A stretch of DNA of 64,000 nucleotides from an uncultured Methylomirabilota bacterium. GTDB lineage: Bacteria > Methylomirabilota > Methylomirabilia > Methylomirabilales > 2-02-FULL-66-22. A program made the translations under genes and the position numbers. The stretch spans positions 96,001-160,000 of the forward strand of contig CAWJSJ010000005.1 in the NCBI GenBank assembly GCA_963845565.1. Direction: 5' to 3'. Below, one piece after another: positions 22,421-22,983 of the stretch (its first letter is position 1; each line of letters starts with the position of its first letter). Below the pieces are notes generated by a model, which saw nothing but the letters and a program-made list of their open reading frames with translations, was not told the DNA's origin and searched no databases.

Positions 22421-22446
22421 TGGCCACAAGACGCACAAGAAGCACA
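22421..22446 (+). repeat. Left inverted arm of the GxxExxY cassette (9-nt period)
   Basis: TGGCCACAAGACGCACAAGAAGCACA; 25/26 match to the reverse complement of 22958-22983. Confidence 0.92.
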
Positions 22447-22542
22447 GGGGTATGGAGCGAGGGCTAAAGCGAACCACACGGCGTACAGGACCCGAAGAAT
22501 AACGGCGACCGTGGAGGGCTGATCGCAGGGGGCGGCGCACTC

Positions 22543-22917
22543 ATGGATGATCGTGAGATCTTGACCCTGTGCGACCGGATTCGGGAGATCAGCCTCGCCT
22601 TACACGGGTACTTGCGGCATGGGCACCTGGAGAAGGTGTATGAGAACGGATTGGGCCATCGTCTACGAAAAGCCGGGATCGGTTTTGAGCAGCAGTATCC
22701 GCTGAAGGTATCCGATGAGGACGGTGCGACGCTTGGAGAGTATTACGCAGATTTCCTTATCGAAGGCTGTCTCATAGTTGAGTTGAAGGCCTGCAAGGCG
22801 TTGGCCGCTGAGCATACCGCCCAACTGCTCGGCTACCTGCGCGCCTCGCGCATGGAGCACGGTCTGCTTATCAACTTCGGAGCCAGCCGACTCGAGATTC
22901 GCAAATTCAAAATCTAG
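22543..22917 (+). CDS. GxxExxY protein (PD-(D/E)XK nuclease fold)
   Basis: GHLEKVY motif, YYADFLIE, IVELKA, HTAQLLGYL, GLLINFG. Confidence 0.93.
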   Translation: MDDREILTLCDRIREISLALHGYLRHGHLEKVYENGLGHRLRKAGIGFEQQYPLKVSDEDGATLGEYYADFLIEGCLIVELKACKALAAEHTAQLLGYLRASRMEHGLLINFGASRLEIRKFKI

Positions 22918-22957
22918 CTATCGTCCGGCTGTGCACTCTTTTTCCTCGTGAATATCT

Positions 22958-22983
22958 TGTGCTTCTTGTGCCTCTTGTGGCCA
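22958..22983 (-). repeat. Right inverted arm of the GxxExxY cassette
   Basis: TGTGCTTCTTGTGCCTCTTGTGGCCA; ends 14 nt before the pyr operon -35 box. Confidence 0.92.

What the first reader, a model, noticed from the sequence alone, without database searches (positions are those of the whole stretch)
22421..22983. Candidate minimal mobile cassette: a GxxExxY nuclease-fold gene enclosed by periodic inverted arms
Seen: a 124-aa GxxExxY ORF lies between 26-bp inverted arms (25/26 identical) built from 9-nt GCACAAGA(A/G/C)-like units. The 563-bp unit fills the gap between the spermidine-synthase-like stop (22408) and the pyr promoter (22998). Known: GxxExxY proteins are assigned to the PD-(D/E)XK nuclease fold and, to my knowledge, have no established function. 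Inference: the arms plus gene form a transposase-free mobile or self-excising element whose arms pair in RNA or ssDNA, looping out the ORF much like an intervening sequence.
Basis: partly seen in the sequence, partly recalled or inferred. Interest (0 to 1): 0.75.

Follow-up and report, generated by a model that had tools for sequence, protein, structure and literature searches.

The report
Nuclease gene inside a palindromic repeat
A small nuclease-like gene sits between two mirror-image repeat arms, and the same gene-plus-arms package, along with gene-less copies of the arms, occurs in many bacterial phyla, which points to a compact genetic hitch-hiker that I could not find described.

Summary
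Arms 22421-22446 and 22958-22983 are 25/26 complementary, are built of 9-nt CACAAGA-type units, and enclose a 124-aa GxxExxY / PD-(D/E)XK gene.

It is also general. In 58 of 79 related loci from about 15 phyla the gene is bracketed by inverted arms, against 2 of 303 control positions. The arms are mostly three CRCAARR units of 9-10 nt that end outward in T-R-GCC. Arm pairs come in two states: 42 enclose the gene and 40 are empty hairpins.

Distant family members in cultured bacteria (Sphingomonas, Bacteroides, Bernardetia, Gemmatirosa, Prevotella) have arms of the same design. Related species show empty sites (fabD|fabG, radA|FAD gene). Bacteroides finegoldii and Gemmatirosa carry many dispersed gene-less hairpins.

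The cassettes lie in operon spacers, co-oriented with their neighbours. They are inherited vertically for long periods, with purifying selection on both protein and arms. The arms are conserved as a sequence motif; I found no compensatory pairing signal.

Best reading: a REPIN/RAYT-like or IVS-like element with a minimal nuclease whose cognate sites are the arms. No test here shows that the protein acts on the arms. Empty alleles at this window's own locus could not be checked.

The parts
22421..22446 (+). Left arm: TGGCC followed by 9-nt units (CACAAGAC, GCACAAGAA, GCACA...). It is the purine-rich, T-free strand and starts 12 nt after the stop of the upstream gene.
   Evidence: matches the family arm type seen
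22447..22542 (+). 96-nt spacer between the left arm and the ATG. This is unusually long: in many relatives the arm ends 0-20 nt before the start codon.
   Evidence: distances
22543..22917 (+). GxxExxY protein gene (124 aa), a minimal PD-(D/E)XK nuclease fold. G27-E30-Y33 and D70, E80, K82 are conserved.
22944..22983 (-). Right arm. The core 22958-22983 is complementary to the left arm, and a fourth, degenerate unit lies inward (22944-22957). It is the A-free strand on + and ends in GGCCA.
20714..22408 (+). Upstream host gene (membrane protein fused to a spermidine-synthase-like domain), co-oriented with the cassette and the likely source of read-through transcription (inferred).
   Evidence: orientation bias
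23031..23142 (+). PyrR-binding leader and attenuator of the downstream pyrR-pyrB-pyrC-carA operon. It is host sequence and marks the right limit of the insertion site.

Best explanation
The 563-bp unit is one member of a widespread class of compact cassettes. Each carries a GxxExxY (minimal PD-(D/E)XK) nuclease gene in the loop of a palindromic repeat element. The two arms each consist of about three 9-10-nt CRCAARR units and end outward in T-(A/G)-GCC. Gene-less hairpins with the same arms exist beside the cassettes and, in some genomes, dispersed in large numbers. The cassette entered an intergenic spacer of a transcription unit, here between the spermidine-synthase-like gene and the pyr leader. 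It is co-oriented with its neighbours and is probably expressed by read-through. It then persists vertically, with selection on both the protein and the arms. I infer that the arm units are the cognate recognition sites of the encoded nuclease, and that the nuclease creates, maintains or mobilises the hairpin population, as RAYT transposases do for REP/REPIN sequences. Pairing of the arms in the transcript, which loops out the ORF, would be a consequence that may limit polarity and keep nuclease expression low. Shown: the architecture, its generality, the element ends, empty and filled sites, the gene-less hairpins, and purifying selection. Inferred: the protein-arm interaction and any mobilisation.
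For: Family-wide bracket: inverted-repeat score >=13 in 58 of 79 testable loci against 2 of 303 control positions in the same loci, and >=15 in 49 of 79 against 0 of 303. Same unit type: 40 of the 58 pass a strict unit pattern against 3 of 2000 control windows. Unit arrays are 3.12 per kb next to the gene and 0.053 per kb elsewhere. Two states only: of 84 adjacent arm pairs, 42 enclose the gene (inner distance 371-560 nt, one of 1403), 40 are hairpins with loops <=150 nt, and 2 are other. Element ends: T at -2 in 48 of 57 left arms and 47 of 57 right arms, with no conservation beyond -4. Distant members (34-55% identity) in cultured bacteria: clear periodic arms in 5 of 8 (Sphingomonas, B. finegoldii, Bernardetia, Gemmatirosa, Prevotella). 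Filled against empty sites: fabD|cassette|fabG in S. parapaucimobilis against a 30-nt spacer in S. paeninsulae, and radA|cassette|FAD gene in B. finegoldii against a 13-nt spacer in P. distasonis. Hairpin gain or loss at orthologous sites: L002 against 5 orthologues and L024 against L013. Dispersed gene-less hairpins: B. finegoldii has 3 plus the cassette in 24.8 kb (14 motif hits, 0.17 expected), 2 in a 45-kb record without the gene, and 26 BLAST places in 14 records, with one gene copy found at E<=1e-10. Gemmatirosa has >=79 places on two megaplasmids. Selection: pS 0.70-1.0 (saturated) against pN 0.03-0.22 within synteny groups, while the 30-nt arms keep about 80% identity between orthologues. 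The catalytic D70/E80/K82 and G27/E30/Y33 are conserved. The model has pLDDT 95.6 with nuclease-fold neighbours. Orientation: both neighbours are co-directional with the gene in 47 loci and opposite in 7 (29 v 7 after collapsing synteny groups), and 6 of 6 annotated plasmid-collection loci are co-oriented. An unbiased scan of 2350 small ORFs for flanking inverted repeats found only 6. One is an S23p/PF05635 gene and two are IS200-like Y1 genes, which are the two known analogues.
Against: Nothing here shows that the protein binds or cuts the arms. A PD-(D/E)XK hydrolase alone cannot do strand transfer. No target-site duplication could be shown; TA at the ends is ambiguous because it is palindromic. 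The cassettes are syntenically stable over saturated synonymous divergence, so recent mobility is not shown. The window holds no second arm copy in 64 kb. Loops of empty hairpins hold no remnant of the gene, so they are not simple deletion derivatives. 21 of 79 loci score below 13, and 2 of 8 distant loci (Treponema, Fusobacteria) have only weak, non-periodic repeats. The loci were chosen through the gene, so hairpin density near genes is biased upward. The single gene copy in B. finegoldii was counted only in the records held in the plasmid collection, not in a verified complete genome. The homodimer prediction never ran.
Confidence: 0.5

Rival explanations
1. IVS-like RNA element. The arms work mainly in the transcript. 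They pair into a 26-30-bp stem that loops out the ORF, is cut by RNase III or occludes the start region, and so insulates the host operon from the insert. The protein need not touch the arms.
For: The arms pair in the minimum-free-energy fold of the window transcript (z -5.5, 0 of 100 shuffles as stable). The cassettes sit inside transcription units, co-oriented and without room for a promoter. In group A the upstream stop codon abuts the arm and the ATG follows the arm by 0-5 nt. The Coxiella 23S IVS has a 28-bp terminal stem, an ORF in the loop, tandem heptamer repeats before the start codon and RNase III excision (passages read in PMC4990558). An S23p-family gene outside rRNA (L031) has arms of 7-nt units. 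Arm cores lack stop codons in six frames in 92 of 114 cases against 921 of 3000 random 26-mers.
Against: There is no compensatory signal: within-locus left-right identity is 0.806, cross-locus 0.786 and orthologous left-left 0.804. G.U-type mismatches show no clear strand bias (111 v 86, p 0.087; 140 v 154 on wider alignments of the canonical loci). The same unit sequence is kept across about 15 phyla, which a pairing constraint alone does not require. Gene-less hairpins dispersed in genomes need a separate explanation.
Confidence: 0.22
2. Homing into a host repeat. The hairpins are an independent repeat family made by something else. The GxxExxY gene is a selfish nuclease gene that cuts the centre of empty hairpins and is copied into them, so the arms are its target, not its own ends.
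For: Arm pairs are bimodal: 40 empty and 42 holding the gene exactly between the arms. A symmetric site fits a dimeric PD-(D/E)XK enzyme (general knowledge of type II restriction enzymes). Hairpins far outnumber genes in B. finegoldii and Gemmatirosa. Loops of empty hairpins carry no gene remnant.
Against: Arms of about 30 nt at roughly 75-80% identity give little homology for repair-mediated copying. The arm unit type follows the protein subfamily across phyla, which is more easily explained if arms and gene travel together. The window has the cassette but no empty hairpin in 64 kb. No other agent that would spread the hairpins is known.
Confidence: 0.15
3. The arms are a decaying relic of one old insertion, or a chance repeat, with no present function.
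For: The window has only one cassette. The cassettes are syntenically fixed within clades.
Against: 0 of 100 shuffles give the window pattern. Only 2 of 303 control positions reach the score that 58 of 79 loci reach. The arms keep about 80% identity between orthologues whose synonymous sites are saturated.
Confidence: 0.03

Closest known systems
REPIN-RAYT systems (REP sequences and REP-associated tyrosine transposases)
   Same: A small gene flanked by inverted copies of a short repeat. The same repeat forms gene-less hairpin doublets elsewhere in the genome. The gene is at low copy number against many hairpins. Inheritance is long-term and vertical. The features of REPIN/RAYT are taken from abstracts in the search listing (PMC3337134, PMC3116915, 10.1101/119735, 10.1101/2022.05.22.493013).
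   Different: The protein is a 124-aa PD-(D/E)XK fold, not a Y1 HUH transposase (one search shows no Y1_Tnp match). The arms are arrays of three 9-10-nt units rather than one REP palindrome. The cassettes lie inside operons. The phyla are mostly outside the Proteobacteria. No activity is shown.
23S rRNA intervening sequences carrying an S23p (four-helix-bundle, PF05635) ORF
   Same: About 430-560 nt long, with terminal inverted repeats forming a stem of about 26-28 bp, an ORF of about 120 aa in the loop, short tandem repeats next to the start codon, and no transposase. Passages read in PMC4990558. A non-rRNA S23p gene with periodic arms lies in L031.
   Different: It is not in an rRNA gene but in an intergenic spacer. 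The ORF family differs. RNase III excision was not tested. Gene-less dispersed hairpins accompany it.
MITEs such as Correia elements (recalled, not read here)
   Same: Terminal inverted repeats of about 26 nt, possible TA at the ends, intergenic copies, and no transposase inside the short copies.
   Different: One copy type carries a conserved nuclease gene. No DDE transposase partner is known. No target-site duplication was demonstrated. A 2024 MITE survey (PMC11602168, passages searched) mentions Bacteroides MITEs but holds no occurrence of 'nuclease' or 'PDDEXK'.
Free-standing homing endonuclease genes between conserved genes (recalled)
   Same: A small nuclease gene inserted in intergenic spacers between conserved, co-oriented genes, with filled and empty alleles between relatives.
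   Different: Homing genes have no conserved inverted arms of their own and no gene-less repeat population.

Membership tests
GxxExxY protein family (TIGR04256 / PF13366 PDDEXK_3) | Profile score above the curated cut-off over the full length | tested here: met
   113.8 bits against 35 for residues 9-122; 102.1 bits against 22
GxxExxY protein family (TIGR04256 / PF13366 PDDEXK_3) | G-x-x-E-x-x-Y motif in the second helix | tested here: met
   G27 is invariant; E30 and Y33 are >=90% conserved in 50 sequences
PD-(D/E)XK nuclease superfamily | Catalytic D ... (D/E)-x-K on the central strands, and the alpha-beta-beta-beta-alpha-beta core | tested here: met
   D70 is invariant; E80 and K82 are >=90% conserved. 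The model has pLDDT 95.6 with H-H-E-E-E-H-E-E order. Foldseek neighbours are SSO0001 (4ic1, E 7e-5, TM 0.56-0.62), lambda exonuclease and Hjc. Nuclease activity itself was not tested.
REPIN-RAYT system | The gene encodes a Y1 (HUH) tyrosine transposase | tested here: not met
   The Pfam scan gives only PF13366
REPIN-RAYT system | The gene is flanked by inverted copies of a repeat that also forms dispersed gene-less hairpins | tested here: met
   This holds for relatives; the window itself shows no gene-less hairpin in 64 kb.
REPIN-RAYT system | Single-copy or low-copy gene, vertically inherited | tested here: inconclusive
   Synteny groups with saturated synonymous sites. One copy was found among the B. 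finegoldii records held, but no verified complete genome was counted.
23S rRNA intervening sequence (IVS) | Inserted in a 23S rRNA helix | tested here: not met
   It lies between a protein-coding gene and the pyr leader. There is no rRNA match in the window.
23S rRNA intervening sequence (IVS) | Complementary termini forming a long stem around an ORF | tested here: met
23S rRNA intervening sequence (IVS) | Excision from the transcript by RNase III | not testable with these tools
   needs RNA end-mapping
IS / MITE transposon | Terminal inverted repeats plus target-site duplication | tested here: inconclusive
   Inverted repeats are present. The outer T-R (often TA) is palindromic, so a duplication cannot be told from an extension of the repeat. 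No longer direct repeat was found. The filled and empty comparisons are too diverged to decide.
Integron gene cassette | ORF followed by a single attC site; arrays next to an integrase | tested here: not met
   The arms lie on both sides of the ORF. The neighbours are housekeeping genes.
Known RNA families (Rfam 15) | Match to a curated covariance model over the arms | tested here: not met
   Only TPP matches at gathering score in the window. Only the PyrR leader matches at E<=1 in 22350-23200.

The most novel reading that the evidence does not exclude
GxxExxY proteins, a family with thousands of 50%-identity clusters and no known function, are the protein partners of a hitherto unrecognised class of palindromic repeat replicators. 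They would be a PD-(D/E)XK counterpart of the REPIN-RAYT system, spread over at least 15 phyla including human-gut Bacteroides. Together with S23p-type IVS genes and RAYTs they would define a general 'small ORF in a hairpin of short periodic units' lifestyle that colonises operon spacers.
Probability: 0.35. Interest if true: 0.9.

Novelty: new variant of a known kind. Interest (0 to 1): 0.8.

Why it matters
GxxExxY/PDDEXK_3 is a very large family: 8236 cluster representatives at E<=0.001. I found no assigned function for it. The 2012 superfamily survey lists its function as unknown (PMC3424549, passage). Tying the gene to a defined cis element gives the family a testable substrate for the first time. 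It may also explain a class of dispersed hairpin repeats in Bacteroides, Gemmatirosa and many uncultured phyla. If the nuclease acts on the arms, this would be a second, mechanistically different solution to the REPIN-RAYT type of long-lived intragenomic replicator. It would also link that system to the old question of what rRNA intervening sequences and their ORFs are. Cultured hosts (Bacteroides, Sphingomonas, Gemmatirosa) make the question directly testable.

Tried and rejected
- **RNA-level pairing selection.** I counted mismatch types and compared within-locus with cross-locus arm identity in synteny groups. No signal emerged, so pairing was not taken as the main constraint.
- **Other cargo in the same arms.** A Pfam scan of 39 ORFs near distal arms found only host genes and one second GxxExxY copy.
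- **Empty hairpins as deletion derivatives.** tblastn and blastn of 16 loops against the genes gave no meaningful hit.
- **Defence or phage link.** There is no PADLOC or PHROGs family match.
- **Solved structure by sequence.** None was found.
- **Known RNA family.** None was found.
- **Literature.** Searches for GxxExxY (3 papers), PDDEXK_3 (1), and PF13366/TIGR04256/IPR026350 (2) found nothing on repeats. Searches on IVS protein, inverted repeat and selfish elements and on Bacteroides, REP and MITE found no description of this association. I did not see the curators' text of the NCBIfam and InterPro entries, which might mention repeats.
- **Empty site at this window's own locus.** Only an indirect cue remains. 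A GxxExxY cluster (P0052, 77% identity) and a PyrB cluster (P0285, 89%) both list a longest contig of 24,834 nt. Several PyrB relatives on long contigs (56,943 to 5,645,311 nt) have no partner among the 120 best GxxExxY hits. Equal short contig lengths also occur by chance, so this is weak.
- **Homodimer prediction.** The complex-prediction job was never accepted because the queue was full at every attempt, so no result exists.

Full report
**Observation.**
- Arms 22421-22446 and 22958-22983 are 26 nt long, 25/26 complementary and 511 nt apart.
- They are built of 9-nt units. A two-unit pattern occurs 4 times in 64 kb, only in the arms, against 0.08 expected; 0 of 100 shuffles reach 4.
- Between them lies a 124-aa ORF (22543-22917) that is a full-length GxxExxY / PDDEXK_3 protein.
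- The unit fills the gap between the stop of a spermidine-synthase-like gene (22408) and the PyrR-binding leader of pyrR-pyrB-pyrC-carA (23031-23142).
- It is poorer in G+C than its flanks.
- By PyrB similarity (83-88% to proteins named Methylomirabilis or NC10) the host is a Methylomirabilota-like bacterium.

**The protein.**
- Fifty aligned homologues keep G27, E30 and Y33 and the catalytic D70, E80 and K82.
- The AlphaFold model is confident (pLDDT 95.6).
- Its nearest solved folds are PD-(D/E)XK nucleases: SSO0001 (4ic1; a Cas4 by my recollection), lambda exonuclease, RecE and Hjc, all at modest TM-scores of 0.4-0.6.
- No solved structure matches by sequence, and there is no defence or phage family match.
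- The family is very large: 8236 representatives of 50%-identity clusters at E<=0.001.

**Generality of the arms.** One scan of species-representative genomes returned 80 loci with proteins 59-76% identical to the window's. They come from MAGs labelled with 15 phyla.
- A motif-blind search for the best inverted repeat between 400 nt upstream and 250 nt downstream scored >=13 in 58 of 79 testable loci. Only 2 of 303 control positions in the same loci did so. At >=15 the counts were 49 of 79 against 0 of 303.
- The arms are versions of one design: T-(A/G)-GCC followed by about three CRCAARR units at 9-10-nt spacing. Of the 58 arms, 40 pass a strict unit pattern against 3 of 2000 control windows. 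The other 18 look like degenerate versions by eye.
- Conservation stops 3-4 nt outside GCC (T at -2 in 48 of 57 and 47 of 57), which marks the element ends.
- With an arm profile, adjacent arm pairs fall into two classes: 42 enclose the gene (inner distance 371-560 nt, one of 1403) and 40 are hairpins with loops <=150 nt. Of the 2 remaining, one (L065) is itself the gene, with its end over-extended by my ORF extension.
- Loops of the empty hairpins hold no remnant of the gene. In L051 whole hairpins, loops included, are repeated at 84-96% identity.

**Distant members in cultured bacteria.** tblastn against the plasmid collection, many of whose records are chromids or chromosome pieces, found 8 loci at 34-55% identity.
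- Periodic inverted arms are clear in 5: Sphingomonas (25 nt, 92%), B. finegoldii (30 nt, 90%), Bernardetia (28 nt, 86%), Gemmatirosa (perfect 35-nt hairpins on both sides) and Prevotella (an AT-rich variant).
- They are plausible in Persicobacter and weak in Treponema and Fusobacteria.
- The unit sequence differs by subfamily (CGCGAAGG, CACAGAGGA, ACAAAT...), but the design is the same.

**Insertions.**
- In S. parapaucimobilis the cassette lies between fabD and fabG. S. paeninsulae has a 30-nt spacer there.
- In B. finegoldii it lies between radA and an FAD-dependent gene. P. distasonis has a 13-nt spacer there, and Phocaeicola massiliensis has an unrelated 215-aa ORF.
- Empty hairpins also come and go. 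L002 has an extra unit of about 113 nt that 5 orthologous loci lack. L024 has one between pyrB and pyrC that L013 lacks.
- Gene-less hairpins are dispersed:
  - B. finegoldii has 3 plus the cassette in 24.8 kb.
  - It has 2 in a 45-kb record without the gene.
  - It has 26 BLAST places in 14 records, with one gene copy found.
  - Gemmatirosa has >=79 places on two megaplasmids, and the reporting limit was reached.

**Lifestyle.**
- The 80 loci fall into 11 groups of 2-6 with homologous flanks, plus 48 singletons. That is about 59 different contexts.
- Within groups the cassette sits at the same site although synonymous sites are saturated (pS 0.70-1.0) and pN is 0.03-0.22. The few measurable dN/dS values are 0.04-0.18. 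The arms still keep about 80% identity between orthologues. Both protein and arms are therefore under purifying selection, and the cassettes are old residents.
- One group, a type I restriction-modification locus, spans MAGs of four phyla.
- The protein tree needs 33 changes of phylum label (minimum 14; shuffled mean 41.3). It rests on a short alignment, is poorly resolved and depends on MAG labels.
- The gene is co-oriented with co-directional neighbours in 47 loci and opposed in 7. After collapsing groups the counts are 29 against 7, about 3e-4 two-sided by my own arithmetic.
- In group A the upstream stop codon abuts the arm and the ATG follows the arm within 0-5 nt, which leaves no room for a promoter.
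- Two Nitrospirota loci carry the cassette inside the pyr operon, between pyrC and a metallophosphoesterase gene. This is a different spacer of the same operon as in the window.

**What constrains the arms.**
- Left-right identity within a locus (0.809) exceeds that between random loci (0.745). Within synteny groups, however, it equals cross-locus left-right identity (0.806 against 0.786) and orthologous left-left and right-right identity (0.80).
- Transition mismatches give G.U on the sense strand 111 times and on the antisense strand 86 times (p 0.087).
- The arms are therefore kept as a sequence motif, not through compensatory pairing. This points to a sequence-specific reader, and the only constant companion is the encoded protein.
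- The arms can of course pair in a transcript. They are T-poor (2.4% T), and 92 of 114 cores have no stop codon in six frames against 921 of 3000 random 26-mers.

**Comparison with known systems.**
- An unbiased scan of 2350 ORFs of 85-220 aa elsewhere in the loci found 6 with flanking inverted repeats scoring >=15.
  - One is an S23p/PF05635 '23S rRNA intervening sequence protein' gene with 23-nt arms made of 7-nt units.
  - Two are IS200-like Y1 genes.
  - The remaining three (two overlapping in L040, one in L076) were not examined.
- These are the two closest known kinds. One is rRNA intervening sequences: a 28-bp stem, an ORF in the loop, heptamer repeats and RNase III excision (passages of PMC4990558). 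The other is REPIN-RAYT systems (abstracts in the listing).
- The cassette works like both in anatomy but is a member of neither. It is not in rRNA, does not encode S23p and does not encode a Y1 transposase.
- I found no paper linking GxxExxY genes to repeats. I could not see the database curators' family descriptions.

**Verdict.** The 'mobile cassette' reading is partly supported. The unit is a discrete, transposase-free insertion with gene-less relatives, but it is long-lived rather than visibly hopping. Its arms look like protein-recognition sites rather than a pairing device. The protein-arm interaction is inferred. Empty alleles at this window's own locus and the protein's oligomeric state remain unchecked.

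Noticed in passing
window 11575-11685 (+): TPP riboswitch (RF00059, 65.1 bits), the only Rfam match at gathering score in the window.
   Followed up: no
window 23031-23142 (+): PyrR-binding leader (RF00515, 45.3 bits, below the gathering score of 54, E 7e-5) with a terminator-like hairpin at 23106-23135 ahead of pyrR.
   Followed up: partly
L031:7550-8016: A PF05635 '23S rRNA intervening sequence protein' (S23p) gene outside any rRNA, enclosed by 23-nt inverted arms (22/23) built of 7-nt units. 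It is a second ORF family with the same architecture.
   Followed up: partly
L028:18287-18817 and L033:296-799: IS200-like Y1 transposase genes flanked by inverted repeats of 23 and 21 score units. They are possibly RAYT-like.
   Followed up: no
L003:3960-4053, L016:3560-3584, L025:11713-11738: Arm-like unit arrays lie inside long ORFs that encode N6_Mtase plus Methylase_S domains (type I restriction-modification). The whole locus with its GxxExxY cassette is shared by MAGs labelled with four phyla. Whether the arms are translated in frame was not examined.
   Followed up: no
L013:698-4833 and L024:93-5068: In two Nitrospirota MAGs the cassette sits inside the pyr operon, between pyrC and a metallophosphoesterase gene, whereas the window has it upstream of pyrR.
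   Followed up: partly
L049 v L060; L043; L077: MAG labels clash with synteny. The flanks of L049 (Cloacimonadota) and L060 (Armatimonadota) are 91-93% identical. L043 ('Bifidobacteriaceae') groups with Verrucomicrobia loci. L077 ('Alcaligenaceae') groups with a Frigoriglobus locus. Binning or labelling errors are likely.
   Followed up: no
L092:641-1068: The Gemmatirosa GxxExxY copy between two perfect 35-nt hairpins is split over two reading frames. This is a frameshift or a sequencing error. It was described only and not mended.
   Followed up: partly
L087:876-1523: Phocaeicola massiliensis has an unrelated 215-aa cysteine-rich ORF in the radA | FAD-gene spacer that holds the cassette in B. 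finegoldii. The spacer seems to accept different inserts.
   Followed up: no
L081:1495-1923; alignment A1, C-terminal columns: Some GxxExxY ORFs read on through the right arm, giving hydrophobic tails. In Sphingomonas the ORF ends 2 nt before the fabG start codon.
   Followed up: no
L072:4172-4380 and 6128-6274; L007:4168-5128: Tandem arrays of arms or hairpins: four same-strand arms at a 61-nt period in L072, and five hairpin units at a period of about 100 nt around the gene in L007.
   Followed up: no
L089, L090 (B. finegoldii 'plasmid' records): Records labelled as plasmids carry dnaK, recA, clpB, eno, radA and thrA, so they are chromosome pieces. Counts taken from the plasmid collection should be read with that in mind.
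   Followed up: partly
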